Shown: positions 26,796 to 63,956 of the stretch, in pieces
How the letters are laid out: each line of letters begins with the position of its first letter
Position numbering within the stretch: position 1 is the stretch's first letter
Notes under the pieces: generated by a model
What the model was told of the DNA's origin: nothing
Database searches by the model: none
Seen by the model: the letters and a program-made list of their open reading frames with translations, nothing else
Translations under genes and position numbers: made by a program
DNA from: Neptuniibacter sp.
GTDB lineage: Bacteria; Pseudomonadota; Gammaproteobacteria; Pseudomonadales; Balneatricaceae
Reading direction: 5' to 3'
DNA: 64,000 bases
Assembly (NCBI GenBank): GCA_050633605.1
Contig: JBOEGV010000016.1
Coordinates: 2,211-66,210 of the forward strand

Positions 26796-26998
26796 TGTGA
26801 TCTAGTGATGTTATTGACACGTATATGCGGGATATTCCGATATTAAATGGGATTAAATGGAATACCCGTGATACGTGGGCTGGAAAGAAATACATCAATG
26901 ATCTGCGCGGCGTTAGACGCTTTGCAATTTTGCGATTTTTGAAACGGCTATTCAGATAGACTTGCACCTTTATTGTCATAGTGGACAAAAAAGGCGCA
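26796..26998 (+). repeat. Prophage left end (attL) with transposase-binding sites
   Basis: TGTGATCTAGTGATGTTATTGACAC aligns in register with the reverse complement of the right end; related copies at ~26929-26945 and 26984-26998 (GACAAAAAAGGCGCA). Confidence 0.6.
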
Positions 26999-27011
26999 AG
27001 ACAACCCAAAG

Positions 27012-27710
27012 TCAGTATCTTGGGTTAGGGTCATCGGTAAACTCACAAGATGCACACTCAAAATATACTTCGCTCGTTTTACCGTATCTATCGGTATAGA
27101 AGCCTTTAATTTCACCCCTTCCGAAATTAGAGAAACGACTAGCTAACCTAAAATCTTTTCCATACTTGGCTAATGATCTGGTTTCGGTCGCATTTAAAAA
27201 GAAATAACCATCCTTATCCAATACAGAATCTCTGTGGATGACAAGTTTAGCTTTTTTATCTACAGACAAATTTCCTACATTCTTACCATCAAAGAATACA
27301 TAGTGTTTTTCAGGAATACGTACGTTAGTTACAGCTTGGGCAGCGTCCCCTTTTGGACCAGCGGGGCCTCTGAAACGCGTGTCAGCATGGAGGGTTTCTA
27401 TCAACTGCTTACTTACAACTAACTCTTTTGTTAACGAGTGAGTGAAGTTTTCATCTGTTGATAGCTTCTGCACAAGGGTATTAATTGATTTGTCGTCTAT
27501 CTTAATTTCATCCTTAAATTTTCCAGATTTCTCCATTTTCTCTAATAAAGTTTCCCTGATTGGATGATCATCAACAATTAATCTTGCTACTTCTTGTATT
27601 TGACTATCGGTCAGTTTTTTCTCGAAAACTCCCAAATAACTCGCACCAGCACCAAGAACAATGGTCGTTAATACACCACTGATAATACCAATCTTAACTT
27701 CATTACCCAC
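27012..27710 (-). CDS. Membrane-anchored cargo protein with short collagen-like GPAGPKGD
   Basis: 232-aa AT-rich ORF, N-terminal TM, GGGGG RBS, downstream of repressor. Confidence 0.7.
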   Translation of the reverse strand: MGNEVKIGIISGVLTTIVLGAGASYLGVFEKKLTDSQIQEVARLIVDDHPIRETLLEKMEKSGKFKDEIKIDDKSINTLVQKLSTDENFTHSLTKELVVSKQLIETLHADTRFRGPAGPKGDAAQAVTNVRIPEKHYVFFDGKNVGNLSVDKKAKLVIHRDSVLDKDGYFFLNATETRSLAKYGKDFRLASRFSNFGRGEIKGFYTDRYGKTSEVYFECASCEFTDDPNPRY

Positions 27711-27756
27711 AAATACCCCCCCTTATATCCCTTTGTATTCAAAAGGTTAAATAACC

Positions 27757-28488
27757 TTAAACGTCCTTCCCTATCCAAACCACCCTTCCAATCACTTCCA
27801 GGTCATCTGCTTCGTTAGGTTCAACTTGCTGTTCTTTGTATTCTTTATTGTCGCTGAGTAGCAGGATTCCCTTATTCCACAGCGTTTGGACACGTTTCAC
27901 GATGAGGTGGCTGTTTGTCCTGATTACATAGATATGGCCGTCTTTAAGCTCTTTTTGGCTTGTATCGATCATCAACGTGTTGTTATCGCTGATTGTTGGC
28001 TCCATTGAGTCACCATCGGCAAATACTAAGGCTAGGTCTTTTTCTTTCAGCCCTTTGTATTTAAGCCACTTATGGCGGAATGCGAGCTTGCGAGTTGGTG
28101 TTTCGTCGGATGGCAACGCACCCGACCCTGCAGATACCTGGATGTTATAGCCTGGGATTAAAGCAAACTCTGACATCTCAGGATCGTGTGCACCACCCCC
28201 AGCTTCTTGGTGTAGACGCATAGCTCCTTCACCAGTCACTAGCCATAAGACATTTACTGCCCCTGCTAAAGCCATTAAGACAGCTTTATCAATAGTCGGA
28301 AACGAATCCCCCTTCAAGTACTTACGAATGACACCCTCAGATAAACCAGCTCTAGATGCGTACATACGTACGCTTCCTACTTCTTCCACTACTTTTTCAA
28401 GGCGTTTGGGGAATTGCACGATTCCATCCTGGAGAATCGTGCGCTGCGCCCGTTTTAAATCCTCTGAATGACTATCGCTATAACTCAT
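27757..28488 (-). CDS. Phage repressor (XRE HTH + S24 peptidase)
   Basis: HTH, VSAGSG cleavage region, GDSMEPTI, VKRV, VIGRVVWIG. Confidence 0.92.
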   Translation of the reverse strand: MSYSDSHSEDLKRAQRTILQDGIVQFPKRLEKVVEEVGSVRMYASRAGLSEGVIRKYLKGDSFPTIDKAVLMALAGAVNVLWLVTGEGAMRLHQEAGGGAHDPEMSEFALIPGYNIQVSAGSGALPSDETPTRKLAFRHKWLKYKGLKEKDLALVFADGDSMEPTISDNNTLMIDTSQKELKDGHIYVIRTNSHLIVKRVQTLWNKGILLLSDNKEYKEQQVEPNEADDLEVIGRVVWIGKDV

Positions 28489-28516
28489 TGATAAACCTCA
28501 AGTTAATACACAGAGT

Positions 28517-28588
28517 GCGTACAAATATAAAAATAATGAATCGTGCGCGTATTTTTGTGTTGCTATGCGCATATTTGTAAGCTAATCT
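28517..28588 (+). promoter_or_regulatory. Early promoter and operator region
   Basis: TTGCTA(28560)-17-TAATCT(28583); inverted pair GCGTACAAATAT (28517) / ATATTTGTAAGC (28571), the second inside the spacer. Confidence 0.6.
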
Positions 28589-28648
28589 AGTTACAGAATC
28601 TGGCGACCAAGACAGATAAATAAAACTAGTTAGCAAAAGGGCAAAAAA

Positions 28649-28942
28649 ATGAGCAAGACAAAAGCTCGCTCAAGCACACAAAAATCCGACTGGCACCGCG
28701 AAGATATCAAGGCTGCAATTCGGAAAAAATCCGAAATGAGCGTTGCCGCTTTTGCCAAACAAAGCGGTTATAAAAATCCAGCAACGTTCTACAACGTTTT
28801 CAAAATGCCTTACCCGAAGATTGAGCGGATTATCGCCGAGCTTCTTGAGGTAGAGCCTTATGTTATTTGGCCTTCGCGTTATGCAAATCGTAGCACAAAA
28901 AATAGCGAATTTATTGGCATAGCCACTACTCGGGTTGCTTGA
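28649..28942 (+). CDS. ner: Ner-like transcriptional regulator
   Basis: DWHREDIKAAIRK...YPKIERIIAELL...P..IWPSRY; divergent from repressor. Confidence 0.9.
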   Translation: MSKTKARSSTQKSDWHREDIKAAIRKKSEMSVAAFAKQSGYKNPATFYNVFKMPYPKIERIIAELLEVEPYVIWPSRYANRSTKNSEFIGIATTRVA

Positions 28943-29051
28943 ACTCATCAGTTTCCCCATCTGTGTTTTTCTCAGCTTAAAAGCGGAAACGCTAATGGAA
29001 CAGATGCAGTAATTATTTTTATTTGGACAACGTAGTAACTAAGGAAAACCA

Positions 29052-29516
29052 ATGGCTCGCATGAATTGGAAGCGCCAACGCGCAAGAAGCCTAAGACACG
29101 GTACGGAACTGTGTATTGCTTACGCCAAGGACGCGCATAACCGCAGTGTGGAAACCATTGCAGAGATGATGGGTGAAGAGAGCCATTGGACGCTTTATAA
29201 GTGGATGGAATCTGGACGGATGCCTGCCGTAAAAATCCGCGCATTTGAACATGCCTGTGGTGCTGACTTTGTTACCAAATACCTTGCTCACAGTGCCGGT
29301 TACCTGGTTATTGAGATCCCTAAAGGGAAGACGGTGAAGCATAAAGCGTTGAACGAGCTGGGCGCATATACGCATGAAGTACTTGGCGCGCTGCTCTCTT
29401 TTTATGAAGACCACGAAGGTGCCGAACAGGTAAAGCAGGCTGTAACCCTGCTCATTGAAGACCTGGCATATCAGCGTGGAAATATTGAGAAATATCAGCA
29501 GCCGGAGCTGCTGTAA
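29052..29516 (+). CDS. Conserved Mu-like early regulatory protein (HTH-like)
   Basis: AAGGA RBS, LYKWMESGRMP and FEHACG motifs, position between ner and transposase. Confidence 0.7.
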   Translation: MARMNWKRQRARSLRHGTELCIAYAKDAHNRSVETIAEMMGEESHWTLYKWMESGRMPAVKIRAFEHACGADFVTKYLAHSAGYLVIEIPKGKTVKHKALNELGAYTHEVLGALLSFYEDHEGAEQVKQAVTLLIEDLAYQRGNIEKYQQPELL

Positions 29517-29527
29517 GGAGTATCCAA

Positions 29528-29773
29528 ATGTCAAAAACAGCTATTTTTCCTGCGAGTTACGTAGCCGCTCAGCGAGAAAAGCGACGTTCTCTGCAAGCGC
29601 GTCGAATTCGGCAACAAGCACTTCAGAAGCAGGTCCATCCAACTCGTTTGCTTGGCGAGAAAGAAACCATTGAGCTTCAGCAATTCCCTGATCCTGAAGG
29701 TGAGAAAGTGCCCAGCTTAGCGTTATCTGGAGAGCATCAATCCGATGATTCTGCTCTTCCAGTTGATGCTTAA
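29528..29773 (+). CDS. Hypothetical phage protein
   Basis: TAAGGAG RBS, co-oriented with early operon; overlapped by an antisense ORF. Confidence 0.45.
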   Translation: MSKTAIFPASYVAAQREKRRSLQARRIRQQALQKQVHPTRLLGEKETIELQQFPDPEGEKVPSLALSGEHQSDDSALPVDA

Positions 29774-29801
29774 GGATTTCTATTTCAGTTAGGTCAACCA
29801 T
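29541..29801 (-). CDS. Hypothetical antisense-oriented helical protein
   Basis: AAAGGA RBS before ATG 29801; amphipathic 86-aa product. Confidence 0.5.
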   Translation of the reverse strand: MVDLTEIEILKHQLEEQNHRIDALQITLSWALSHLQDQGIAEAQWFLSRQANELDGPASEVLVAEFDALAENVAFLAERLRNSQEK

Positions 29802-29890
29802 TTTTCGTCCTTTGTTGGTTTGGTGGAACTTCCAACTATAGGGGAATCGGGGGCTGGGTTCAGCCCCCACTTAAAGGAAGAAATAGAGTT

Positions 29891-31960
29891 ATGAAACAGT
29901 GGTATACAGCTATAGAAATAGCAGAAGCAATGGCTGTTGATAGAACAACTATCAAACGTAGAGCAGAGCGGGAAAGCTGGGAAAGCCAAGCACGAGCTTT
30001 TGGTAAAGGCTGCGAATACCACATTGCCAATCTACCAACCGAAGCCCGTAAAGCGTTAGAAGCTCAGCAAATTAACGACCTAATGCCGCGCTTGCATGAA
30101 TCCAAGGCTCTGGCGGTAAAGCCTGCATCTAGCCAGCAGACAGGCTTGAACGAACGCCAGCGCAGTACTGCGGATTCCCGCGCTACCGTTATCACTGCTA
30201 TTAAAGCAATGGCAGATCTGGGAGTTACCCAAGAAGCGGCTATCACGACTTTATTGTCACAAGCTGTTACGGGAGCGTTAGCTGAAACCAATCCTGTTCT
30301 GGACAAAGCCCTGCAGCTGGCTAAAGACCCTCGCGGTAATTCAGACAGCAACTACCCCAGCGCTCGCAGTATCAAGCGTTGGCTGGCTAAAGAACCAACC
30401 AAACTGGCTCCAGAATCCAAGCGTGAACTTAAGATTCCTGAATGGGCTAACGATTTTCTGCTTTGTTGGCAGCGTCCAGAAAAACCAAGTGTAGAACACG
30501 CATACCGCCAGTTTGTGGCCTTCTACCAAGAAGGTGAAACACCACCAAGCATTCATTCTGTACGTCGTTTTATTAAGAAAATGGGCAATGTATCCAAAGA
30601 GCGTGGCCGTATGGGTGCCCGTGAACTGAAAAACATACTCCCGTTTGTTCGCCGCGACTTCAGCAGTCTACTACCTGCAGACGTATACAGCGCAGATGGC
30701 CACACCCACGACGGCGAAGTGCAGCACCCGTTCCACGGTCGCCCCTTTCGTCCAGAGATCACCACGTTTATCGATATCGGTACTCGTCGAGTAGTGGGTG
30801 TTTCGGTAGACCTTGCAGAGAGCAGTATTGCTGTACTGGATGCCCTTATCAGCTCATGCACCCAGGCTGTACCAGCTCTTATTTATGTTGATAACGGTGG
30901 CGGTTATGTAAACGCCATGCTGAAAGATGAAGCCACCGGCGTTATGGCTCGCCTGGGTAGCACAATGACCCACTCTCTACCTTATAGCTCACAAGCACGT
31001 GGCGTGATTGAACGTGTACACCAGACGCTATGGGTTGATGCGGCAAAAGGCTTAAACGGTTTTGTCGGTAAAGATATGGACCAGGAAGCCAGGCACGAAC
31101 AGTTCAAACTCAGCCGTAAGGCAGTAAAACAAGGCGGCACTATGCCACTGATGGGATGGGAAGCCTTCCTGCAGACAGTGAACGAGAGGATTAATTGGTA
31201 CAACAGCCGTCCACACAGCACCCTGCAGAAGATCACCGATGAACAAGGAAAACGCCGCCATCAAACTCCAGACGAACTGTGGAACCAGTACAGAAATCAA
31301 GGCTGGGAGCCAATCACGCTAACAGGTGACGATGCCGCCCAGGTATTCCGACCACGTACCACACGTACCGCCAATCGCGGTGAAATTAAGTTCATGAGCA
31401 ACATCTACTTCAGCCATGACCTAACCGAATGGCACGGCGAGCAGATACATATCGCCTATGACATCAACGACCCGCAATTCATCTGGGTTTATGAACCAGA
31501 AACCGGCGTTCTCATTACTAAAGCAGAGCTTAACGGTAACCGTCAGGACTACATGCCAAAGAGTGTGATTGAGCAAGCCCGTGAAGGTCGCGCCAAAGGC
31601 CGTCTGCGTCGCCTAGAAACAAAGGTAGAAGAAGTAGAAGCAGAGCTTAACGGCCGCCCGGCATTGGAACAGGAAGCGCCTGTTTATATCCCAGGCATCG
31701 GTGCGATTACTCCTGACCTAATCAATAGCCACAACCAAATTGAAGAAGCCGAGCTGATCGAAACGTCAGCAGAGCAAACCCTACAAAACATGAATTCTGC
31801 AGAACGCATCGACTTATACCAGGCATACCAGAACGGTAAAGCGGTACCAGAACATCACAAATTTTGGGTTAAGACATACGGGAAAAGTAAGGAATACAGC
31901 GCTTGGGCACGGCGCTATGAGGATGAACAGGAGATGGGATCAGAGGCTCGAACCCTCTGA
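29891..31960 (+). CDS. Mu-type DDE transposase (MuA)
   Basis: N-terminal Mu HTH, ADGH, YVDNGGGY, ARGVIER, YNSRPHSTL, Mu C-terminal domain. Confidence 0.95.
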   Translation: MKQWYTAIEIAEAMAVDRTTIKRRAERESWESQARAFGKGCEYHIANLPTEARKALEAQQINDLMPRLHESKALAVKPASSQQTGLNERQRSTADSRATVITAIKAMADLGVTQEAAITTLLSQAVTGALAETNPVLDKALQLAKDPRGNSDSNYPSARSIKRWLAKEPTKLAPESKRELKIPEWANDFLLCWQRPEKPSVEHAYRQFVAFYQEGETPPSIHSVRRFIKKMGNVSKERGRMGARELKNILPFVRRDFSSLLPADVYSADGHTHDGEVQHPFHGRPFRPEITTFIDIGTRRVVGVSVDLAESSIAVLDALISSCTQAVPALIYVDNGGGYVNAMLKDEATGVMARLGSTMTHSLPYSSQARGVIERVHQTLWVDAAKGLNGFVGKDMDQEARHEQFKLSRKAVKQGGTMPLMGWEAFLQTVNERINWYNSRPHSTLQKITDEQGKRRHQTPDELWNQYRNQGWEPITLTGDDAAQVFRPRTTRTANRGEIKFMSNIYFSHDLTEWHGEQIHIAYDINDPQFIWVYEPETGVLITKAELNGNRQDYMPKSVIEQAREGRAKGRLRRLETKVEEVEAELNGRPALEQEAPVYIPGIGAITPDLINSHNQIEEAELIETSAEQTLQNMNSAERIDLYQAYQNGKAVPEHHKFWVKTYGKSKEYSAWARRYEDEQEMGSEARTL

Positions 31961-32001
31961 TCCCTGTGCCCACCAATCTTGCAATACGGAGCAAAGAAAG
32001 T

Positions 32002-32739
32002 ATGACAACTTACAACGCTAGCAGCAATGGCGGATACGCAGAAATTACTAACATCAGTCTCTGCGATGTCGCCTTAGAACGTGCTATTGAACGCACACAA
32101 TCTCTACCCGGCATGGTGTGCCTGTATGGGCCGTCCGGTTTTGGTAAATCAGTAGCCGCGCTACTGGTAGCCAATAGCCGCCGCGCTTACTACATCCAGG
32201 CAAAAAGCGTGTGGACCAAAAAGCACACTCTCACCGCCATTCTGCATGAAATGGGCATCACACCAGCGGCCACCATACCCCAGATGATGGACCAGGCAGC
32301 GCAAGAACTGGCTATGAGCGGTCGCCCTCTGATCGTAGATGAGATGGATCACTTGGTTGAAAAGAAAGCGGTGGAGCTGATTCGTGATCTCTATGAAGCC
32401 AGCCAAGCCCCAATTCTGTTGATCGGTGAAGAACAACTGCCTAACAAGCTGAAACGCTGGGAACGTTTCCACGGCCGTGTACTGGCTTGGATTCCAGCGC
32501 AGCCAATCAGCCTTGATGATGCGAAAAAGCTACTCCCTATTTATGCCAACGGCATCAACGTTGAAGACGACATGATTGAACACCTGGTGCAGATCTCCGG
32601 TGGCAGTGTTCGCCGTGTAGCCGTCAATCTGGAATCTATCCGCGAAAAGTCAATGGAATACGGCTGGGAAACCGTAGACCGCCGCACCTGGGGCAAGACT
32701 GAACTCTACACTGGCGAAGCGCCAAAACGCCGCATCTAA
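32002..32739 (+). CDS. MuB-like AAA+ transposition ATPase
   Basis: Walker A GPSGFGKS, Walker B LIVDEMD; GGAG RBS before ATG 32002. Confidence 0.92.
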   Translation: MTTYNASSNGGYAEITNISLCDVALERAIERTQSLPGMVCLYGPSGFGKSVAALLVANSRRAYYIQAKSVWTKKHTLTAILHEMGITPAATIPQMMDQAAQELAMSGRPLIVDEMDHLVEKKAVELIRDLYEASQAPILLIGEEQLPNKLKRWERFHGRVLAWIPAQPISLDDAKKLLPIYANGINVEDDMIEHLVQISGGSVRRVAVNLESIREKSMEYGWETVDRRTWGKTELYTGEAPKRRI

Positions 32740-32759
32740 GGACACTAGGGAACAACAGG

Positions 32760-33395
32760 ATGAATACAGCAGTACAACAATCCCCAGCCAAAAACCGAAA
32801 ACCAGCCCAGCTGGAAATGATCGGCGGCAAGTCAGCACGGCAGCGTGTTTGGGAAGAGATCTGCAAGCAGAAGAACGAAGTGTTCTGGCTGAATGATGTT
32901 GCCTTTAAAGCCAATGTTGATGTGAACACTGCACGCACCTATGTACACAGCTTGGTTAAAGGCGAGTACTTAGAAAACGCCCCTGCAGAAGGTCGCAGAA
33001 AGTATCGTTACCGCCAGATAAAACATAACGGTATTGAAGCACCTCGTTTGGATCGCAAGGGCAATCAGGTGAAACAAGGCCTAAGCAGTGAATGCATGTG
33101 GCGAACTTTACGCATCCTGTCAGGTGAGCTGGATGTAACCAAGCTGATTGCTCATGCCTCTGCAAGTGGCATTGATATCCATATTCGTTATGCCAAAGCC
33201 TATATCACCGCTCTGAAAAAGGCTGGCTATCTACATATTACCAAGCCAGGTGGGCCAAACCGTTTGGAAAAGTTCTTCCTTAAACCGGCCATGAATACAG
33301 GACCACGCCCACCCCAAGTGCAACGCGTAAAAACGGTATACGACCCAAACCTTAACAAGGTGATGCACTGCGAAAACCCGGAGGAACTGTCATGA
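32760..33395 (+). CDS. Conserved Mu-like phage protein (tandem wHTH-like)
   Basis: RQRVWEEI, MWRTLR, TGPRPP and VYDPN motifs seen after MuB in transposable phages. Confidence 0.75.
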   Translation: MNTAVQQSPAKNRKPAQLEMIGGKSARQRVWEEICKQKNEVFWLNDVAFKANVDVNTARTYVHSLVKGEYLENAPAEGRRKYRYRQIKHNGIEAPRLDRKGNQVKQGLSSECMWRTLRILSGELDVTKLIAHASASGIDIHIRYAKAYITALKKAGYLHITKPGGPNRLEKFFLKPAMNTGPRPPQVQRVKTVYDPNLNKVMHCENPEELS

Positions 33396-33742
33396 AAATT
33401 GATATTTCCTCATGGGGTGAGCAACCACCGGAGTTTATCCGTGTACTGGCTACCACTGTAGAAAAAACGGGTACTAGAAAAGCGGCTGGAGACTTGATTG
33501 GAATTGATCGCGCTTCCGTTAGCACGCTGCTTTCTAACACCTATCCAGCTAATACAGCTGAGATGGAAAAGAAAATTCTGGCTTTCGGTTCCGGTAAACA
33601 GTGCCCCGTACTGGGGCAAATTAGCGGCGATGAATGCCAAAAAAAACGTGAACAAACGTTCATTAGCAGCAACCCACAACGTGTAGCGCTCTACCGAGCT
33701 TGCAGTAAGTGCGAACACAACCCAATGCGAGGTGAAGTATGA
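33392..33742 (+). CDS. Phage HTH protein with Cys-rich C-terminus
   Basis: HTH-like IGIDRASVSTLL, CPVLG.I....C, C..C..N. Confidence 0.7.
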   Translation: MKIDISSWGEQPPEFIRVLATTVEKTGTRKAAGDLIGIDRASVSTLLSNTYPANTAEMEKKILAFGSGKQCPVLGQISGDECQKKREQTFISSNPQRVALYRACSKCEHNPMRGEV

Positions 33743-34029
33743 ATAAACAAAACCTATTCATTAAGGACCGTTTAGCTCACCTAAACATGACTATCAATAT
33801 CCTGCACGCACTGCATTTAACCGTGCTGGATTTTGAGGTGAAAGATCGTAATCCCGTAATACATATCGCCCCCGGAAAAGGCTGTCAGCAACTACGTGAT
33901 ACACGCACTGTCTGGAAACCAGCAGATAGCGGCATACGCAAAGTGACCAAGGTCGCCAAAGTGGGTGACTGTGAAGTGCGCTGGGATGTACAGGAAGATA
34001 TTCCATTTCAAGGAGCTTCAACATGCTGA
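33739..34029 (+). CDS. Hypothetical phage protein
   Basis: GAGG RBS, ATGA coupling, C-terminal GDCEVRW. Confidence 0.65.
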
Positions 34030-34211
34030 TTTTAACCCGCCGCATAGGCGAGACATTAATGGTTGGTGATGACGTAACCGTCACCGTTCTAGGGGTAAAA
34101 GGTAACCAAGTTCGCATTGGTGTTAATGCACCAAAAGACGTGAGTGTACATCGTGAAGAGATCTACCAACGCATTCAAAAAGAAAAAAAAGAGGGCCAAA
34201 GTGATGCCTGA
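34023..34211 (+). CDS. csrA: Carbon storage regulator CsrA/RsmA (phage-encoded)
   Basis: [51 protein letters not shown], canonical including Arg44; AGGAG RBS. Confidence 0.95.
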
Positions 34212-34461
34212 ATTTAATCTAATTATCGATCTGCCTGCCAGCCGTCAGGCCGGGCAGATCCGCTTCTGGGGTGTGGCAGAAACCGTCACCACGCCAGATC
34301 CAGCACAAGCCATGCTCGTACCAACCGAACACCTGAACAAATGCTTGCATCGCTACGACAACGGCAGAACAACCCGCGCCGTTCTGCAAAACAAAATAAA
34401 AGAAATGAATGGTGATTATGACCAACTCATCCAACACGAACTTAAGGAGCAAGCAGCATGA
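34204..34461 (+). CDS. Hypothetical phage protein
   Basis: GAGG RBS, start overlaps csrA end. Confidence 0.6.
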
Positions 34462-35087
34462 CCACAATGCAAGTACAGCCCCATATTCCAGAAGGCTTTA
34501 TGCAAGATTCCAAAGGCAGGCTGGTACCAGTAGAGCTGATCGATGAAATCGACACTACCCGTAATGATCTGGTGTTAGAAATCCTGAACAAAGCCGAGCA
34601 GTTGCAGGAGCAATTGCACGACTTTAAAGCCGCCACCCTGGATGATATTGGAGCCTTCATAGACCTAGCTGGAGAGAAGTATCAGATCGCCATCGGCGGT
34701 AAGAAAGGCAACGTCACCCTCACCAGCTACGACGGTCTTTACAAGATTCAACGCGCCATTCAAGAGCACATCGCCTTTGATGAGCGCCTGCAAGCAGCTA
34801 AAGAACTGATCGATCGTTGTATTCACCGCTGGTCGGAAGGCACCCGCTCAGAGCTGCGTGTACTAGTCGATGATGCCTTCCAGGTAGATAAAGAAGGCTT
34901 AATTAACACTGGACGTGTCCTAAGCCTGCGTCGTCACAGCATCGAAGATGAAGAATGGCAACGAGCTATGCAAGCCATCGCAGACAGCATCCAAGTCAGT
35001 GGGTCTAAAACCTATATACGCATCTATAAGCGTTCAGGACCGGACCACAAATGGCAGCCCGTTTCTCTTGATCTAGCAACCGTGTGA
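34458..35087 (+). CDS. DUF3164 family protein
   Basis: G.LVP, GGKKGNVTL.SYDG, FDERLQAAKELID, AFQVDKEG, SKTYIRIY. Confidence 0.9.
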   Translation: MTTMQVQPHIPEGFMQDSKGRLVPVELIDEIDTTRNDLVLEILNKAEQLQEQLHDFKAATLDDIGAFIDLAGEKYQIAIGGKKGNVTLTSYDGLYKIQRAIQEHIAFDERLQAAKELIDRCIHRWSEGTRSELRVLVDDAFQVDKEGLINTGRVLSLRRHSIEDEEWQRAMQAIADSIQVSGSKTYIRIYKRSGPDHKWQPVSLDLATV

Positions 35088-35095
35088 GGTAACTC

Positions 35096-35341
35096 ATGAG
35101 CATCATATCCTCAACCTATCTTGCTTCACGGGTCGCTATGAATGCTCGGCTTACTCAAAGCCAAGCAGAAGCAGCCATTAAAGCTCTAGGGCCAGCCATC
35201 GTGCAAACCCTCAACAGCGATCACGCGATTGAGTTTAAAGGCTTCGGTCTGTTCAAAGTTGAGAAACGCCAGGATGGTAGTAACGGGGTGCACTTTATCC
35301 AAGCAAAAACAGTACGGGAGGCCGTCAATGGTAACGCCTGA
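35096..35341 (+). CDS. Divergent HU/IHF-like protein with shortened arm
   Basis: LTQSQAEAAIKAL...IEFKGFGLFKV...VHF..AKTVREAVN. Confidence 0.65.
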   Translation: MSIISSTYLASRVAMNARLTQSQAEAAIKALGPAIVQTLNSDHAIEFKGFGLFKVEKRQDGSNGVHFIQAKTVREAVNGNA

Positions 35342-35760
35342 ACAGTGGGAACAAATCGAGCAAGAGCTACAAGGTTTCTACGGCAAAGTAACCCTCAAAC
35401 TTCAAGGTCGGGAACTAACATTAATCAATGTCTATGTACTCAGAAAGTAGGCTTGCCATCATTGTATACATAGATGGCCATTATAGCCCTGCCTGGGGAT
35501 TTCCTGAGCATAAAAAAAGAGACCCCTTTGTCGATAAGATCTGGCGCAAACGCACCAAGTCGCTTTATCCACCTAAAAAGAAAGCCCAAATCATCAAGGT
35601 TTGGGGTAAGCGAAAGGCATATAAAGAATTTGAACTGGATAAGAAATACATCCGCTATGAACCGGTTTTTAACACCGCTAAATCCTTAATTCACCAGTAC
35701 AAAAAAATTAAAGATCTCGAATTCGTCAGCATTGGAATTACAACAGGAGAAATAGCATGA
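35328..35760 (+). pseudogene. Phage protein split by a 1-nt frameshift
   Basis: GGAGG RBS plus MVTPEQW frame stops at 35450; removing one base near 35439 joins it to SESRLAIIVYIDG frame. Confidence 0.6.
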
Positions 35761-36020
35761 CCTATGACCCAATGAAAGAAGTAGCGGAAGAAGGTTCGCT
35801 CCAGGAAGAAGCGGCACAGATTATCTCTCAGCTTATTGCCTGGCACGACGGCAGAGTGGAGACACTAAAGCAAACCTCTAATGTAAAAGTGATAAGGCTT
35901 CAGGGTGGCAAGGGTCAAACAATCGAAATTGATGATCCAAAGGTTATCCAGGGATATCAGTTAGGGGTAGAAGCAGCTCTGCAATTGCTTGGCAAATTAC
36001 CTATTTCAATCTCTGAATAA
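35757..36020 (+). CDS. Hypothetical phage protein
   Basis: AGGAG RBS, ATGA coupling, WH and GKLPISI motifs. Confidence 0.7.
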   Translation: MTYDPMKEVAEEGSLQEEAAQIISQLIAWHDGRVETLKQTSNVKVIRLQGGKGQTIEIDDPKVIQGYQLGVEAALQLLGKLPISISE

Positions 36021-36089
36021 GCGAAACACCTTAGTTCTCAGAACAGGGTGTCTATCCAACGTGGCGATTGGGTACTGATGAGCAGCCAC
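36021..36089 (+). ncRNA. Type II hammerhead ribozyme with pseudoknot
   Basis: GC-GAAA-stem III-GUC-stem I-CUGAUGA-GC with all core nucleotides; loop GUGGC pairs with 3' GCCAC. Confidence 0.9.
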
Positions 36090-36108
36090 TAAAACTTGAG
36101 GAAGAACA

Positions 36109-36399
36109 ATGAACAAAGCAGATCTGATTAGCAACATTCAAAGCCAAATGCAGCTAATTGATGACCGGGATGTCAGTAAAGCAGATGTTGAATCCCTACT
36201 GAAATCACTGGAAACAACTATTCACGATGGGCTATGCAATGGCCGTGAAGTTGTCCTTCCAGGAATCGGTAAATTATCTAAAGGTCAGCGGGCAGAGCGC
36301 AAAGGCCGCAACCCACAAACAGGTGAAGAAATCACTATTCCAGCAGCTAATACAGTCAAGTTTAAACCGCTTAAAGCACTGAAAGACGCGATTAATTAA
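36109..36399 (+). CDS. HU family DNA-binding protein
   Basis: MNKADLI, LPGIGKL, RAERKGRNPQTGEEITIPA, VKFKP.KALKDAIN. Confidence 0.93.
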   Translation: MNKADLISNIQSQMQLIDDRDVSKADVESLLKSLETTIHDGLCNGREVVLPGIGKLSKGQRAERKGRNPQTGEEITIPAANTVKFKPLKALKDAIN

Positions 36400-36490
36400 T
36401 GGGTAAAGTGCCGCCCTTACGGGCGGTTAGAAGGGAGCCGTCCGTGGTTCCCGCCATTGATAAGAAAACATCTTAATTTGGAGAACTAAA

Positions 36491-37009
36491 ATGCCATACA
36501 CCCAAATAGAGAAAAGCGTTATCAATACCTTGGGAGAGAACGGCCCTATGGGTATTGCTAGCCTAATGCCTAAGGTGGAAGGGCTAGAAGGTAAAAAGCA
36601 ACTAATTAATGTGCTTGAAAACCTACAAAGCAGAGGCGTCACAAAAAAACAAAGTAATAGCCAATGGGCCATTCTTAAAGTGATTTATGCTCAGCTACAA
36701 AAAGATGGAGACCTAACCGCTACTTCTGAGAAAAAACCATCTCCAAAAAAAGCTCCATTACAGGATATACCTGCTACTGAAGATATTCGTGTGCCGCCGA
36801 AAACCACAAGTGGTCGGAAGACGGCGACCAAATTAAGTATCAGCGACAAGGTTCTGGAAATGATGAGTATCCTGCCTCAGGGGGCAAGTCTCGCTATAAG
36901 CTCCGAAGGAATTAACCTCTTCTGGAATCAAGTAACTCTTGAACCTAATGCAGAAGAACTGGAAGAAGTAATGCAATCACTCCATTGCTTACAAAGATGT
37001 GTTGCGTGA
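36491..37009 (+). CDS. Hypothetical protein (possible N-terminal wHTH)
   Basis: GGAG RBS, flanked by hairpins. Confidence 0.65.
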   Translation: MPYTQIEKSVINTLGENGPMGIASLMPKVEGLEGKKQLINVLENLQSRGVTKKQSNSQWAILKVIYAQLQKDGDLTATSEKKPSPKKAPLQDIPATEDIRVPPKTTSGRKTATKLSISDKVLEMMSILPQGASLAISSEGINLFWNQVTLEPNAEELEEVMQSLHCLQRCVA

Positions 37010-37116
37010 TTTGCTAATTTAAGGGCGCTCTGCGCGCCCTTGTAGTTAGGTTGTAAATTCCCAACCACAAGCGGCTACTGGCTGTTTCTGATTGTGAATT
37101 AACCGAGTAAAGCAAT

Positions 37117-37569
37117 ATGCAGTTAAACCGCTGCCCCGTTTGTCATAGCCGTATTGGCTTAGAGCAACTTGTCCAGGACGAAGCAGGCCGGGATCTACTA
37201 GCACTCATTGCCAAGCAGGACAAAACCACCGGAATGGTTCTAGTCACCTACATTGGCTTGTTCCGATCAACCCGTAGGGATCTGGCAAATGACCGAGCGC
37301 TGCGTCTGGCTAATGAAGCGTTAGAGCTAGCCCCGCCAGCACCGCTTCTAACGGCAATGGCCCAAGTTGTGGAATCGATGAGAGCCAAACAACAGCAAGG
37401 CAATTTTAAGCCTCTGGCCAATCACAACTACTTAAAGCGAGTACTGGAAGGTAGCGGCAACGGCGAAATAATTGCAGCACTGCCAGCTGGCATACCGGCC
37501 AACGATAAACAAACCAGGCGCGCCGCTATTACCGGGCAGGTCATGGATATTAAAGATACAAGTTGGTAA
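37117..37569 (+). CDS. Conserved Mu-like phage protein
   Basis: RCPVCH, YIGLFR...RDLA, PLANHNYLKRV. Confidence 0.75.
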   Translation: MQLNRCPVCHSRIGLEQLVQDEAGRDLLALIAKQDKTTGMVLVTYIGLFRSTRRDLANDRALRLANEALELAPPAPLLTAMAQVVESMRAKQQQGNFKPLANHNYLKRVLEGSGNGEIIAALPAGIPANDKQTRRAAITGQVMDIKDTSW

Positions 37570-37573
37570 CCAA

Positions 37574-38230
37574 ATGAAACCGAAAAAAGACAACCGAAAA
37601 GCAGCCCTAGCCCAGATCCACATAGCGAAAAAACAGCTGGGTATGGATGACGATGTATATCGTGATGCGCTTGAGCAGATCACAGGAAAGCGAAGCTGTA
37701 GTGGTATGCACATTAGCGAGTTGTACCTGGTTATCAAACACATGGAAAAATGCGGTTTCAAAACCAAGCGCCAGTCTCAAAAAACTGGACGCTCTCAGAA
37801 GAAACAATACAGCCCAAAATCCAAAGGCCAAGTTATCGACGTAATGCGTGCGATCTGGATAGAAATGCATCACGAAGGCATCGTGGATGATGGGTCAGAA
37901 ATGGCGCTTACTCGCTGGGCAGAACGCCAGAGCAGCACGTTAAATAGCGGTGTCGGTATTGCAGAACTGGAATGGCTGGAGCGCACAAAACACGTTGGTC
38001 CCGTGCTTGAATCCCTAAAGCAGTGGCGCACCCGTGTATGGAAGAGATGGTTAAAAGAAGATATTCAAGCCATTAACCTACTAATCAGCACAGAAAACCT
38101 GAACCCTGCTGTAGCTATCCAGCGCTTACTGGATGAGCACTACATCATGTACCACGGTGCTTTCTTTGATTACGGCATAGAGCCAGATCCAACATACTGC
38201 AGCAACCGCAAGGAGCTGAAACATGTCTGA
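37574..38230 (+). CDS. gemA: GemA/gp16 (DUF1018) family protein
   Basis: IHIAKKQLGMDDDVYRDAL..ITGKRSC, GF, ESLKQW. Confidence 0.88.
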   Translation: MKPKKDNRKAALAQIHIAKKQLGMDDDVYRDALEQITGKRSCSGMHISELYLVIKHMEKCGFKTKRQSQKTGRSQKKQYSPKSKGQVIDVMRAIWIEMHHEGIVDDGSEMALTRWAERQSSTLNSGVGIAELEWLERTKHVGPVLESLKQWRTRVWKRWLKEDIQAINLLISTENLNPAVAIQRLLDEHYIMYHGAFFDYGIEPDPTYCSNRKELKHV

Positions 38231-38645
38231 AGAGCAGCAAGACCTGCTGAGTGCAACCACCTTCACAGATGATCTCGCCAGCCACCTAGGTGAGATCCCG
38301 GAAGAAGTGCGTAAAAAATGGCCTAAAGATCTGGCAGCACTCATCGATATTTTCAGCGACGAACTGGAACGCCAGGGCTACGCTAAAGAAGAGTCACAAC
38401 GTATTACCCACCGCCTGCTGGCAGCCCAATCCATGTACTGTGGTGGCCGCTACTTCTACCTACCCAAACCCGATGCACTGGAAAAAGCTGTGCGCGATCT
38501 GAACCTGTACAACGACTGGGCAGGGAACAATATGGAACCTTCTGAGCTGACTAAAAAGTATAAAGTCAGCGTTCAGCATGTGTATCGCATTATCAAAGAA
38601 CAGCGGGCATACTATCGGAAAAGGATTCAACCGGAGTTGTTTTAG
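38223..38645 (+). CDS. Mor/C family transcription activator
   Basis: GGRYFYLP, RD..LY, ELTKKYKVS.QHVYRII. Confidence 0.9.
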   Translation: MSEEQQDLLSATTFTDDLASHLGEIPEEVRKKWPKDLAALIDIFSDELERQGYAKEESQRITHRLLAAQSMYCGGRYFYLPKPDALEKAVRDLNLYNDWAGNNMEPSELTKKYKVSVQHVYRIIKEQRAYYRKRIQPELF

Positions 38646-39179
38646 ATGGATATTCAACCTGCTATTAATGTACTACCAGATTGGTTGCAAGTACTAACCG
38701 GTTTATTAGCTCTTTGTATCATTGTGTATCTTAAATTTGGCGAAGCGATATATAAGGCAAGCAAAACATATCTCGATTACACGAAGAAAAAGCATCAACT
38801 AGAGCTTCAGAAACTCCATTATGAAATTGAGCAGATAAAAAAAGATGCAGGTTTGCCTGATCTGCCAATAGAACCTGACGAGAAGCATCAAGCTGAAGGT
38901 AGTGAAACACAAACAATTACTCCTCTCTCTTTTGTGAGCGGGATACTCATTGGTGTTTTTTCGCCGATCATATTGCTTTCAATATATTTAATGGAACAAG
39001 CACCAGCTCTTTTGAATGATCAAGACTTTCTACCTGCCGTGCCCATGATGATGATAGTCGGTGCTTTAGCAGGCCTTTTTTGTCGTTACCCCTTAAAGTT
39101 AACAGGCATTATTGCGCCTGCAGCTTTCAGTATTTTTATTTTGACAACATCGTTCGTATTGATACTTTCTTTCGCTTGA
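38646..39179 (+). CDS. Membrane cargo protein (about 4 TMs)
   Basis: AT-rich ORF with hydrophobic segments and a coiled-coil. Confidence 0.65.
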   Translation: MDIQPAINVLPDWLQVLTGLLALCIIVYLKFGEAIYKASKTYLDYTKKKHQLELQKLHYEIEQIKKDAGLPDLPIEPDEKHQAEGSETQTITPLSFVSGILIGVFSPIILLSIYLMEQAPALLNDQDFLPAVPMMMIVGALAGLFCRYPLKLTGIIAPAAFSIFILTTSFVLILSFA

Positions 39180-39274
39180 TGAAACCTGTTGCTGAGCCTG
39201 CCAATACAATCGGTGAGGTATGATCGGCATACTCTCATAAGACTCATATCTAGCTTTAAACAAGGAGATTTATA

Positions 39275-39859
39275 ATGACAGTGGAATGTGTCGGGCCAGT
39301 AACCTGCTCATGGATGTTTTTAGGCGATAATGTCGCCTCAATTATTGCAGCGTGTGCGATGACCGCGACGTTTTGGCAAGGATATATCACGAGAAAGCAC
39401 AACAGGTTATCAGTAGAACCTTACCTTCATGTTAAAGCAGATCTCGATTGTAAACAGCCAGAGATCTCATTTGACATTATAAATAACGGAGTTGGGCCTG
39501 CATTTATTAATTCAATAAAAATAAGAAGTAACGATAAAACACTGGATACATCAAACTTTCATCAAACTGGTTATGAGCTTTCGACTGAGTTCAAATCTTG
39601 TTTCAAGATTTTGAGTCCAGGAAAGGCTAAGAAAGATGAGTTGCGTGTACTTTTTAGCGTCCACTCTTTAGAGCCTGGAGAACCAATAAAAGCTGGTTCA
39701 AAAATCAACTTACTTTCATTTTGCTTACCCAAAGTTGAAGGATTGAAAGCAGATCTTCTTACTGATCTAGCTACCAGAAAAATTAGTACTCTTACTTTTG
39801 AAATAAAGTATTCATCTTTGTACGGCAAGAGTTTTACATACACATTTAACCAAGGTTAA
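39275..39859 (+). CDS. Cargo protein with N-terminal TM
   Basis: AAGGAG RBS, RKHNRLSV.P and NNGVGPAFI, I.Y.SLYG pattern. Confidence 0.7.
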   Translation: MTVECVGPVTCSWMFLGDNVASIIAACAMTATFWQGYITRKHNRLSVEPYLHVKADLDCKQPEISFDIINNGVGPAFINSIKIRSNDKTLDTSNFHQTGYELSTEFKSCFKILSPGKAKKDELRVLFSVHSLEPGEPIKAGSKINLLSFCLPKVEGLKADLLTDLATRKISTLTFEIKYSSLYGKSFTYTFNQG

Positions 39860-39888
39860 ACCGGCAAAATCACAATCCCCGATAAGCT
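39845..39888 (+). promoter_or_regulatory. Late (lysis) promoter with activator dyad
   Basis: TTTAACC-AA-GGTTAAA dyad; -10-like TAAGCT at 39883. Confidence 0.65.
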
Positions 39889-39935
39889 GGAGTCCTAACG
39901 AAATTTAAGGACTCTAACCTTACCGGGGATTTTTT

Positions 39936-40427
39936 ATGCCTAAAAATTTCTATGAGCATGAACAGCTTCAACGGATAACTGTTGAGCGTTTTTCATCAGA
40001 TAACGACGCAACTCTCAGCCTTATTTTTGTCGATGACCAATTTATCTGCTTCGGTCTTGAAGATGAATTTAGAACTGACAAAGTACCAGCTGAAACCCGT
40101 ATCCCAGCTGGTGAATACGAAGTATCCCTCCGTGTAACCGGCGGTTTCCATAACCGTTACGAGCAAAAGTTTTCAACCTTTCATGAAGGCATGTTGTGGA
40201 TTAGAAATGTTCCCAACTTCCAATATATCCTTATTCATATTGGCAATACCGATGCAGATACTGCAGGTTGCCTATTAGTCGGTGAAGGCGCTTCGACTAG
40301 CGGTGAGTTCCGAATATCAAATTCCACCGATGCTTATAAAAAACTTTACCAAAAGGTATCTAATGCTGCGCATGAGGGGCGATTGGTAATTGAGTTTATA
40401 GACCGCGACCGAGAGGAAAAGTCATGA
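39936..40427 (+). CDS. DUF5675 family protein, probable endolysin by position
   Basis: LEDE, TRIPAGEY, VPNF.YILIHIGN...DTAGCLLVG; first late gene. Confidence 0.75.
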   Translation: MPKNFYEHEQLQRITVERFSSDNDATLSLIFVDDQFICFGLEDEFRTDKVPAETRIPAGEYEVSLRVTGGFHNRYEQKFSTFHEGMLWIRNVPNFQYILIHIGNTDADTAGCLLVGEGASTSGEFRISNSTDAYKKLYQKVSNAAHEGRLVIEFIDRDREEKS

Positions 40428-40945
40428 ACGACTGGAAATCTATAGTACGTAATATCGCCCCGACACTAGGTGCTGCACTTGGTGGCCCAGCAGGAGGCAT
40501 GGCGGTTAAATTCCTTGCAGACAATCTACTTGGTAATGCCGAAGCCTCACAAGCCGATGTTGAGCAATTCATTGCTACCGCTTCCCCAGAACAGATGGCT
40601 GTGCTGAAAAAACTGGACCAAGATTTTGCTATTGCTATGCGCCAGTTAGATATCGATGTTTTTAAAATTGAAAACGAAGATCGTCAAAATGCCCGTGATC
40701 TTTTTAAGGTAAACATCTGGCCGCAAATCATCCTTTCATCCCTCTTTATTCTTGGCTATTTCGGCATTATGGCGGTGCTTATCTACTTCCATAACGCCAA
40801 CATTAATGACCGTATTTTCGGCATTCTCAATACTGTTATTGGGGTGTTAACTGCAGCCATTCCGATGATTCTGCAATTCTGGTTCGGCAGCTCGCAAGGA
40901 TCAAAAGATAAAACCGCACGGCTAAGGACTGATAAAAGTGACTGA
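40424..40945 (+). CDS. Putative holin
   Basis: IAPTLGAALGGP N-terminus, DR..AR, two TMs, FWFGSSQGS. Confidence 0.7.
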   Translation: MNDWKSIVRNIAPTLGAALGGPAGGMAVKFLADNLLGNAEASQADVEQFIATASPEQMAVLKKLDQDFAIAMRQLDIDVFKIENEDRQNARDLFKVNIWPQIILSSLFILGYFGIMAVLIYFHNANINDRIFGILNTVIGVLTAAIPMILQFWFGSSQGSKDKTARLRTDKSD

Positions 40946-41162
40946 TATCGTTGATAACGCAAAGAAACTGGAGTTAAAGCAGCGCCAAGTCGCATTGAAA
41001 AACGCTCTGAGTCACCGCGAACCTGAACAAGATATCCGAGACGGTAAAGCATTCTGTATTAGCTGCGGGATAGAGATCCCTGCAGCGCGGCTCGCTGTAA
41101 AGCCTAACGCTGCACGCTGTATTCACTGCCAACAAATTGAGGAACAAAAGCATGGACGCTAG
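40938..41162 (+). CDS. TraR/DksA C4-type zinc finger protein
   Basis: D.VD, C.SCG.EIP.ARL...P.AARCI.CQ. Confidence 0.9.
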   Translation: MTDIVDNAKKLELKQRQVALKNALSHREPEQDIRDGKAFCISCGIEIPAARLAVKPNAARCIHCQQIEEQKHGR

Positions 41163-41457
41163 CTGGGCAAAGTTCTGGTTTGATGTAGCGGTATGGATCA
41201 TCGCGATGGGGTTTGCAGTATCTGCATGGATTCGCTCTGGTAACAAACGAAACCAAGCCTCTATTCATGAGTTGCAAGAAGAACTACATCGACTGGACAA
41301 ACGTGTTCAAACAGTTGAGACCCTTGTCAAAGCCGCACCCACGCATGAAGACATAACACAATTGCGTGAGCAGACAGCAGAACTGGATAGCAAACTCGAT
41401 GGTATGCAAAACACCCTCAACCTGATCCATCAGTATCTGTTAAACAAAAAGGATTGA
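41152..41457 (+). CDS. DUF2730-like (Mu gp25-like) membrane coiled-coil protein
   Basis: N-terminal TM, R...VE...P...D..L, position. Confidence 0.7.
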   Translation: MDASWAKFWFDVAVWIIAMGFAVSAWIRSGNKRNQASIHELQEELHRLDKRVQTVETLVKAAPTHEDITQLREQTAELDSKLDGMQNTLNLIHQYLLNKKD

Positions 41458-41460
41458 CCT

Positions 41461-41757
41461 ATGCCGTTTGAAAAGTTTGAAGAAGAAGACCGCCGTTTGG
41501 TGATCCTTCGCCACTTGGCAGAGGATCAGGACTACACCGTCAACAGCTCCATTCTACAAAGCGCGCTTAAAGTCTGGGGGCACTCTGTTAGCCGCGATCG
41601 ACTACATGCAGATATCGCTTGGCTTAAAGAGCAAGGACTGGCCACCTATGAAGAAGTTTCTAGTGTCTACGTGGCTAAAATCACCCAGCGCGGCCTCGAT
41701 GTTGCCGAAGGCACGGCCTCTGTTCCGGGTGTAAAACGTCCGGGACCAGGAGCCTAA
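41461..41757 (+). CDS. Mu gp26-like protein
   Basis: EDRRLVILR.L, WLKEQGL, TQRGLDVA.G....PGVKRP. Confidence 0.85.
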   Translation: MPFEKFEEEDRRLVILRHLAEDQDYTVNSSILQSALKVWGHSVSRDRLHADIAWLKEQGLATYEEVSSVYVAKITQRGLDVAEGTASVPGVKRPGPGA

Positions 41758-46724: not shown

Positions 46725-46823
46725 GGGGTGGATCGCTCAGCCGTTCCACCGACCAGCAGTTCTTTGGGCGCACCTCTGAGTGCTATAGGCTGCTAGGCAG
46801 AGTTACAGTATAGGATATTTTGT

Positions 46824-47306: not shown

Positions 47307-47421
47307 ACAGCCTGTATTCCCTTGTCAGCTACTTTTATATGTAGTTGCTATGCTGATTCGTAAAAGGTACGTTTTAAGTTTCTAACGCGGATCTAACGCT
47401 TTAAAGGGTTGTTATTTATCA

Positions 47422-48372: not shown

Positions 48373-48410
48373 ACCCACGCTCAAACTCATGCCGCTATTC
48401 TGGCGGCATG
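48360..48410 (+). promoter_or_regulatory. Late (protease/head) promoter with activator dyad
   Basis: TAACCAAGGTTAAACC identical to 39847; -10-like TATTCT at 48396. Confidence 0.65.
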
Positions 48411-49915: not shown

Positions 49916-49943
49916 CGCAAAATCAACGTAACGGAGACCAGAA

Positions 49944-50837: not shown

Positions 50838-50899
50838 CCCGCTTATAGGGAAGCTTGAGCAAGGATGCTCACCCACTTTTTTTAAGAGAGATTTATGTC

Positions 50900-53286: not shown

Positions 53287-53306
53287 TCCACCGGAGTAGA
53301 TAAACC

Positions 53307-60604: not shown

Positions 60605-60606
60605 TC

Positions 60607-61916: not shown

Positions 61917-61917
61917 A

Positions 61918-63933: not shown

Positions 63934-63956
63934 AGGAAATCACATCAGTTAGAGTG

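What the first reader, a model, noticed from the sequence alone, without database searches (positions are those of the whole stretch)
33981..34211. Prophage-encoded canonical CsrA with candidate targets in its own genome
Seen: 62-aa CsrA with intact RNA-binding residues in the early operon; its own leader has GGA at 33984, 33993 and 34012 (the SD). Further sites at 32740-32762 and 50856-50871. Known: CsrA is a global translational regulator titrated by CsrB/Rsm sRNAs; csrA homologues occur on some mobile elements. Inference: a phage Csr circuit that reprogrammes host translation and times phage genes. Together with the ribozyme, Com and the MuF-linked RNA, this is a candidate undescribed post-transcriptional control system.
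Basis: partly seen in the sequence, partly recalled or inferred. Interest (0 to 1): 0.75.

Follow-up and report, generated by a model that had tools for sequence, protein, structure and literature searches.

The report
Mu-like prophage CsrA, capsid-side binding hairpin
A Mu-like prophage carries an intact extra copy of the bacterial RNA-binding regulator CsrA, which is already known from other phages; the less ordinary detail is a small RNA hairpin just after the capsid gene that recurs in distant Mu-like phages lacking the gene and likely lets the host's own CsrA hold down the next head gene.

Summary
The gene is real. It encodes a 62-aa canonical CsrA (R44 kept) in the early operon of a 37,207-bp Mu-like prophage with TG…CA ends and a 5-bp target duplication. 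It is an old accessory insertion under purifying selection (dN/dS 0.04–0.08), found in 2 of 17 related prophage places. Phage CsrA is published (Sobrero 2020; Bci; PTXU04 gp28), and this scan has met it on other DNA.

The leader GGAs come from codons and the SD of the upstream gene and also occur in csrA-less relatives. The 32740 cluster is not conserved. GGA is not enriched in csrA+ prophages. The hammerhead, Com and the MuF-linked RNA occur without csrA, so there is no unified system.

One site holds up: the CANGGANG hairpin at 50856–50871, between the capsid gene and gp35. It appears in 9 of 103 post-capsid segments (0.12 expected), including csrA-less DMS3 and MuM16-2, usually 19–31 nt before an SD GGA. 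It likely serves host CsrA. Binding is untested.

The parts
34023..34211 (+). csrA: canonical 62-aa CsrA/RsmA, an accessory gene; its start overlaps the stop of the upstream gene and its end overlaps the start of the downstream gene
   Evidence: dN/dS; presence and absence in relatives
33981..34022 (+). csrA leader, lying inside the 3' end of the upstream gene; GGA at 33984 (Trp-Asp codons), 33993 (Gln-Glu codons) and 34012 (SD); at most a weak autoregulatory site
   Evidence: csrA-less relatives also have 2-3 GGA here
33739..34029 (+). upstream early gene (PHROG 2041; weak match to Kil, PHROG 6381)
34204..34461 (+). downstream 85-aa early gene, which follows the PHROG 2041 gene directly in csrA-less relatives
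32740..32762 (+). MuB / next-gene junction with three GGA; not conserved, rejected as a CsrA site
   Evidence: 0-2 GGA in the csrA+ relatives G003, G020, L015
50856..50871 (+). CANGGANG hairpin (5-bp stem, AAGGAU loop) between the major capsid gene and gp35; candidate high-affinity CsrA/RsmA site
50849..50851 (+). second GGA 14 nt upstream of the loop GGA, kept in G003, G020 and L101
50885..50889 (+). gp35 SD, here AGAGA (a secondary CsrA motif per PMC4066749) where relatives have GGA; 22 nt from the loop GGA
49944..50837 (+). Mu-like major capsid protein (gpT)
   Evidence: PHROG 371
50900..51310 (+). gp35-like FluMu_N protein, predicted target of the hairpin
   Evidence: PF17891; PHROG 2498
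26796..64000 (+). Mu-like (transposable) prophage; its right end lies 2 bases beyond the window; TG...CA ends, 5-bp target duplication, 37,207 bp
36019..36091 (+). type II hammerhead ribozyme; common to csrA+ and csrA- relatives, not part of a csrA module

Best explanation
This is an intact canonical CsrA gene sitting as an optional passenger in the early operon of a Mu-like prophage, and its product likely works as an extra dose of the host's regulator during lytic growth, while the one credible phage site, a hairpin before gp35, is likely read by host and phage CsrA alike.

Shown: the gene, its intact RNA-binding residues, purifying selection, patchy presence, coupling to its neighbours, a separate host csrA, and recurrence of the hairpin in phages with and without csrA.

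Inferred: (1) transcription with the early operon after induction, not in the lysogen; (2) homo- and heterodimers with host CsrA that raise free CsrA above what the host's Rsm-type sRNA can titrate, repressing the host Csr regulon to the phage's modest benefit; (3) a CsrA dimer bridges the hairpin loop and the gp35 SD, lowering gp35 translation relative to the capsid protein.
For: Protein: PF02599 91.8 bits. Three differences from RsmA over residues 1-55, R44 kept. Against host csrA (after lysC on C73), the first 56 codons are 19 identical, 34 synonymous and 3 non-synonymous. dN/dS among same-slot phage alleles is 0.029/0.70, 0.055/1.10 and 0.087/1.11.

Origin and spread: the nearest nucleotide neighbours are phage alleles, not the host gene. 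csrA is present in 2 of 17 prophage places picked by MuB similarity, and in two other slots of Mu-like early operons (L073, L075). No sigma-70-like promoter was found on the + strand from 27500 to 40000. A host Rsm-like multi-GGA RNA candidate lies on C67.

Published phage CsrA effects: bci deletion lowers infection (PMC7546807, passages); PTXU04 gp28 knockdown shrinks plaques (PMC11879866, passages).

Hairpin: closing pair probability 0.99 with the loop GGA unpaired. It occurs in 9 of 103 post-capsid segments against a shuffle mean of 0.12, maximum 2 of 1000. The loop varies only at the two N positions of ANGGAN. A downstream GGA lies 19-31 nt from the loop in 9 of 10 phages, within the bridging range of 10-63 nt, optimum above 18 (PMC7652899, passages). 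DMS3 and MuM16-2 have no csrA.
Against: There are no expression or binding data. Most Mu-like phages do without csrA (0 of 39 further viral records) and without the hairpin (94 of 103), including gammaproteobacterial ones (SfMu, JBD25, martha 12B12, ZX4290, SuMu), so any benefit is small or context-bound. Six of the nine hairpin cases are kin, partly found by likeness to the window. Covariation is one compensatory pair in 6 sequences, and 92 of 500 shuffles score as high. Nearly all Mu-like phages have some hairpin after the capsid gene, so the stem alone needs no CsrA. In the window itself the gp35 SD has lost its GGA. The + strand promoter scan also missed the known-type early promoter, so it is a weak test.
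Confidence: 0.6

Rival explanations
1. A dedicated phage Csr circuit: phage CsrA binds its own leader, the post-MuB leader and the post-capsid hairpin to time phage genes, together with the hammerhead, Com and the MuF-linked RNA.
For: All 3 csrA+ prophages with a capsid region keep the hairpin, and WIN, G003 and G020 also keep an upstream second GGA. The window's csrA leader resembles host csrA leaders in this genus, and E. coli CsrA represses its own leader (PMC7652899, passages).
Against: The leader GGAs come from conserved Trp/Glu codons and the ancestral SD, and csrA-less relatives have 2-3 GGA there. The first two are predicted to be mostly paired. The csrA-less G146a junction scores as well against host leaders (26 against 25). 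The 32740 cluster is unique to the window. Leaders with 2 or more GGA make up 0.16-0.29 in 3 csrA+ and 0.05-0.38 in 12 csrA- prophages. The hammerhead, com and the MuF RNA occur without csrA.
Confidence: 0.12
2. The phage CsrA is a functional host-directed booster, but the post-capsid hairpin is only a generic mRNA-stabilising or processing stem whose GGA loop is inherited sequence with no CsrA role.
For: Hairpins of unrelated loop sequence sit at the same place in most Mu-like phages. The shared ACC tail suggests common descent. Covariation is not significant. The exact motif has 30 hits in viral contigs, and only 2 follow a Mu capsid gene.
Against: The stem sequence differs between lineages while CANGGANG stays. 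At least four lineages outside the window's kin carry it (L107, DMS3, MuM16-2, G396). It is absent from the three alpha- and betaproteobacterial phages checked (RC1, RS138, ThpS-P1), though three cases prove little.
Confidence: 0.23
3. csrA is a neutral or decaying hitch-hiker, or an assembly chimera of the host gene.
For: It is absent from most relatives. No RNA data are available.
Against: The frame is intact with tight overlaps on both sides. The same slot is used in 4 distinct prophages. dN/dS is below 0.1, and synonymous sites are saturated against the host copy.
Confidence: 0.05

Closest known systems
Phage-encoded CsrA/Rsm homologues (PHROG 9500, 5527; RsmM/Bci of Pseudomonas phage AUS531phi; PTXU04 gp28; Bcep22-like JC1 gp47)
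   Same: A csrA-family gene carried as an accessory gene by a phage. Published: 30 of 2517 phage genomes (PMC7366521). 87 of 50,697 phage records match here, at least 2 of them host DNA filed as phage, and 278 viral-contig stretches encode a relative.
   Different: This copy is short and almost host-like (87% identical to host CsrA), whereas the published phage alleles seen in Table 3 are 25-59% identical to E. coli CsrA and Bci has 123 aa. It lies in the early operon of a transposable Mu-like phage; my searches listed no paper describing that.
Chromosomal CsrA/RsmA of Gammaproteobacteria (E. coli 1y00, P. aeruginosa 1vpz)
   Same: Core sequence, R44 and length; the host copy sits after lysC.
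   Different: It lies in a prophage operon with translational overlaps instead of its own promoters, and it has no cognate sRNA in the phage.
CsrA operators with a hairpin site plus an SD site (E. coli glgC; P. protegens hcnA; SELEX consensus RUACARGGAUGU)
   Same: GGA in the loop of a short hairpin with a 6-nt ANGGAN loop, and a second site at the SD within bridging distance.
   Different: It sits in a phage late intercistronic spacer (capsid to gp35). The window's loop is flanked by GC...GC instead of the SELEX AC...GU, and its SD site is AGAGA.
Mu-gpT-DE RNA motif (Rfam RF03012)
   Same: By its name, an RNA element downstream of Mu-like gpT (its description is recalled; the paper's supplement could not be read).
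   Different: No match in the genome at E <= 1, in 50700-51100, or in the DMS3, MuM16-2 and G396 loci.
CsrT of Legionella integrative conjugative elements
   Same: A CsrA paralogue on a mobile element, proposed to regulate that element (PMC7366521, passages).
   Different: CsrT is co-inherited with its element in all known cases; here csrA is optional and the candidate site does not depend on it.

Membership tests
CsrA/RsmA family | Pfam PF02599 above the gathering cut-off over the full model | tested here: met
   91.8 bits, model positions 1-53 of 53
CsrA/RsmA family | Conserved RNA-binding residues (beta1 stretch, R44) | tested here: met
   alignment to 1vpz and 1y00; role of R44 from PMC7366521
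CsrA/RsmA family | Dimerises, binds GGA RNA and represses translation | not testable with these tools
   needs gel shift or complementation
Phage accessory csrA | Located inside a bona fide phage genome, distinct from the host gene | tested here: met
   between MuB and Mor in a TG...CA prophage with a 5-bp duplication; host copy on C73
Phage accessory csrA | Maintained by purifying selection in the phage lineage | tested here: met
   dN/dS 0.04-0.08 for the window allele against 3 same-slot alleles
Classical moron | Own promoter and terminator flanking the inserted gene | tested here: not met
   overlaps both neighbours; no promoter- or terminator-like site at its ends
Self-contained phage Csr circuit | Target sites that co-occur with phage csrA | tested here: not met
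   early sites not conserved; hairpin also in csrA-less phages; no GGA enrichment
Self-contained phage Csr circuit | Phage-encoded Csr/Rsm sRNA | tested here: not met
   no Rfam Csr/Rsm match in the window; the best multi-GGA RNA candidate is on host contig C67
CsrA operator (hairpin plus SD) | ANGGAN loop on a short stem, GGA unpaired | tested here: met
   closing pair probability 0.99, GGA unpaired 1.0
CsrA operator (hairpin plus SD) | Second site overlapping the SD, 10-63 nt away | tested here: inconclusive
   downstream GGA at 19-31 nt in 9 of 10 phages; the window has AGAGA at 22 nt
CsrA operator (hairpin plus SD) | Stem supported by covariation | tested here: inconclusive
   one compensatory pair in 6 sequences, 92 of 500 shuffles as high
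CsrA operator (hairpin plus SD) | Binding and CsrA-dependent repression | not testable with these tools
   bench test needed
Mu-gpT-DE (RF03012) | Match to the covariance model | tested here: not met

The most novel reading that the evidence does not exclude
Several lineages of gammaproteobacterial Mu-like phages, including the model DMS3/JBD30 group, wire a CsrA/RsmA operator between the capsid gene and gp35. The host's Csr/Gac-Rsm state would then set the ratio of head proteins and the pace of virion assembly. Phages such as this one would carry their own early CsrA to fix that setting regardless of host sRNA levels.
Probability: 0.25. Interest if true: 0.65.

Novelty: new member of a known kind. 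Interest (0 to 1): 0.36.

Why it matters
The gene adds a clean, host-like example to a known class and shows repeated capture of csrA into Mu-like early operons (three different slots). The hairpin matters more. In the passages I read, the papers on phage CsrA report phenotypes but name no bound phage RNA. Here a specific 16-nt site is predicted, and a nearly identical stretch (95% or more) lies in 45 Pseudomonas phage records, including DMS3 and JBD30. The open question of whether CsrA/RsmA directly controls phage morphogenesis genes can therefore be tested in an existing laboratory system.

Tried and rejected
1. Leader GGAs as csrA-specific sites: rejected.
2. The 32740-32762 cluster: not conserved.
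3. A second CANGGANG hairpin inside gp36 (51592): absent from all 14 relatives checked.
4. Genome-wide GGA enrichment in csrA+ prophages: none.
5. Linkage of the hammerhead, com and the MuF spacer RNA to csrA: none.
6. CsrB (RF00018): no match in the genome. RsmY (RF00195): 9 matches, none over cut-off.
7. Mu-gpT-DE: no match. The supplement of PMC5737381, which may describe that motif and other CsrA-like motifs, could not be read.
8. Nucleotide tree of 113 csrA alleles (165 nt): too weakly supported to name a donor or to show that the four same-slot alleles are one clade.
9. Scan of viral contigs for the exact hairpin: 30 hits, 2 after a Mu capsid gene, both already held. A longer pattern gave 1 hit, already held.
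10. Expression: no RNA holder listed, so no reads were laid.
11. Structure and complex prediction were not run, because a near-identical solved dimer exists.
12. Literature: searches listed no paper describing a CsrA/RsmA site after a Mu-like capsid gene. PMC4378225 has no mention of hairpin, Rsm or CsrA in its main text. Only open-access papers were searched.

Full report
Setting. The right part of the window is a Mu-like transposable prophage: repressor, ner, a CII-like gene, MuA, MuB, early genes, GemA, Mor, lysis genes, terminase, portal, MuF, protease, major capsid, gp35, gp36, tail genes, com and a DNA methylase. It begins with TG at 26796 and ends with CA two bases past the window, flanked by a 5-bp duplication, 37,207 bp in all. 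The host is a gammaproteobacterium with csrA after lysC on contig C73. A related csrA-less prophage lies in the named record L098, Marinobacterium litorale.

The gene. 34023-34211 encodes a 62-aa CsrA. It differs from P. aeruginosa RsmA at 3 of the first 55 residues and keeps R44, the residue described as essential for RNA binding (PMC7366521, passages). Against the host copy, 34 of the first 56 codons differ synonymously and 3 non-synonymously, so it is neither a recent copy nor a chimera. Against same-slot alleles in G020, G003 and L015, dN/dS is 0.029/0.70, 0.055/1.10 and 0.087/1.11. Its closest nucleotide neighbours among 113 alleles are G020 (87%) and G003 (82%). The tree is too weak to name a donor.

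Distribution. MuB matched 16 of 190 genomes of the family, the window's own included. Of the 17 other prophage places fetched, three of them partial or degenerate, 2 carry csrA. Both have it between the PHROG 2041 gene and an 85-aa gene that are directly coupled in csrA-less relatives. Of the best 80 of 278 viral loci with a CsrA relative, 5 have MuB nearby. Three use the same slot (L005 has the same leader and protein as G003, and L019 as L015), and L073 and L075 use two other slots. None of 39 further viral records, chosen from my Mu-like capsid and gp35 loci mostly by length, had CsrA, 0 of 23 among those at least 90% complete. csrA is therefore an optional, repeatedly captured early gene.

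Early GGA sites. The three leader GGAs lie in the coding end of the upstream gene. csrA-less relatives have two or three GGAs at the same junction, from Trp-Glu-Glu-type codons and the next gene's SD. In the window the first two GGAs are predicted to be mostly paired. The leader resembles host csrA leaders of this genus, but a csrA-less junction scores as high, so capture of the host's autoregulatory site is not shown. The three GGAs after MuB are peculiar to the window: G003 has 1, G020 0 and L015 2. Leaders with two or more GGAs are no commoner in 3 csrA+ than in 12 csrA- prophages.

The wider 'system'. In 15 largely complete prophages the hammerhead pattern is in 13 (10 of 12 csrA-). com is in 7 (6 of 12 csrA-; no com hit in the G003 stretch, and the G020 stretch ends early). 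The two-hairpin MuF-neck spacer is in 7, four of them csrA-. These are features of the phage group, not partners of csrA.

The post-capsid hairpin. 50856-50871 folds with closing-pair probability 0.99 and an unpaired GGA. Only 9 CANGGANG hairpins with 5 or more Watson-Crick pairs exist in the 3.44-Mb genome. That motif is not enriched in hairpins over control loops genome-wide, so it is not a host repeat. It is kept in G003 and G020 (csrA+) and in G062, G079 and G061 (csrA-), that is 6 of 15 prophages with the window's, and it follows the gp35 subfamily rather than csrA. In 6 aligned copies the loop changes only at the N positions of ANGGAN. One stem pair changes on both sides, which is not significant (92 of 500 shuffles). 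It also follows the capsid gene in Pseudomonas phage DMS3, Shewanella phage MuM16-2 and a prophage in G396, none of which has csrA in the phage. The DMS3 stretch is at least 95% identical in 45 phage records. Over 103 non-redundant 80-nt post-capsid segments, 9 have the hairpin with 4 or more pairs, against 0.12 on average and at most 2 in 1000 base shuffles. Six of the nine are kin, including the window. G396 was dropped from that tally by my capsid-match filter. A further GGA lies 19-31 nt downstream in 9 of 10 phages; where the start is annotated or aligned it is the next gene's SD. The window has AGAGA there, a secondary motif (PMC4066749, passages), and a GGA 14 nt upstream. This matches the hairpin-plus-SD design and the 10-63-nt bridging range of CsrA dimers (PMC7652899, passages). 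Against it: most Mu-like phages, including several with gammaproteobacterial hosts, have a different hairpin at this place, so a generic stabilising stem is a live rival.

Mechanism. Shown: an intact, selected CsrA gene coupled into the early operon, and a recurrent CsrA-shaped hairpin before gp35. Inferred: after induction the phage protein adds to the host pool, likely mixing with host subunits and outrunning the host's Rsm-type sRNA. A candidate sRNA with about a dozen GGA motifs lies on C67, without an Rfam match. The result would be repression of host Csr targets. Any CsrA dimer, host or phage, would damp gp35 translation relative to the capsid protein.

Known work. Sobrero and Valverde found csrA in 30 of 2517 phage genomes (PMC7366521, passages and part 2 of section 11). 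Deleting bci, a CsrA-domain gene, lowered infection and changed quorum-sensing genes (PMC7546807, passages). Knockdown of PTXU04 gp28 reduced plaque size (PMC11879866, passages). JC1 carries csrA as a moron (PMC9144972, passages). Host csrA overexpression lowered prophage release in Salmonella (PMC12371270, passages). CsrA-associated TldR loci are not phage-encoded (10.1101/2025.07.22.666180, passages). Earlier notes of this scan record phage CsrA on other genomes, and one records a CsrA operator at an early gene of another Mu-like group. My searches listed nothing on a CsrA site after a Mu-like capsid gene.

Verdict. The gene is a new member of a known kind. The capsid-side hairpin is the lead worth testing, and it points to host CsrA more than to a private phage circuit. 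Interest 0.36.

Noticed in passing
window 46722-46826: The MuF-to-neck spacer folds as two hairpins followed by a conserved TATAGG motif before the start codon. Similar spacers with changed stem sequences occur in G003, G020, G079, G061, G146a and G090, while G062, G151, G155 and G145 have no spacer. No Rfam match. A candidate unnamed cis-RNA; MuF here ends in a PBECR2 domain.
   Followed up: partly
window 62925-63010: A strong hairpin over the com start (z -5.2), kept with changed paired bases in 6 relatives. It likely sequesters the com SD. A second, weaker stem covers the methylase start (63080-63150), as expected for Com control.
   Followed up: partly
window 36019-36091: A type II hammerhead just before the HU-like gene. 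The pattern occurs in 13 of 15 related prophages, with two or three copies in G090, L093 and L096.
   Followed up: partly
window 29005-29052: A T-rich motif ending in TTTGG(A) about 30 nt before the CII-like start is shared by most relatives, but its GGA is not invariant and no GGA-loop hairpin is conserved.
   Followed up: partly
window 47422-48372: A DUF5677 accessory gene between the neck and protease genes, the slot where D3112-like phages keep anti-CRISPR genes (slot assignment recalled).
   Followed up: no
G000:C67 about 29520-29680, minus strand: A host intergenic stretch with about a dozen GGA motifs in short hairpins; a candidate Rsm/Csr sRNA missed by RF00018 and RF00195.
   Followed up: partly
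window 35096-35341 and 36109-36399: Two HU/IHF-like genes in the early region.
   Followed up: no
window 50895-50902: An out-of-frame ATG five bases before the gp35 start is kept in most relatives (ATGnnATG).
   Followed up: no
L240 and L244, L253 (genome G030): One family relative has 9 CsrA-family matches.
   Followed up: no
window 26745-26795: The prophage is inserted in a short repeat element whose start matches the end of a tRNA-like gene found beyond the right end.
   Followed up: partly
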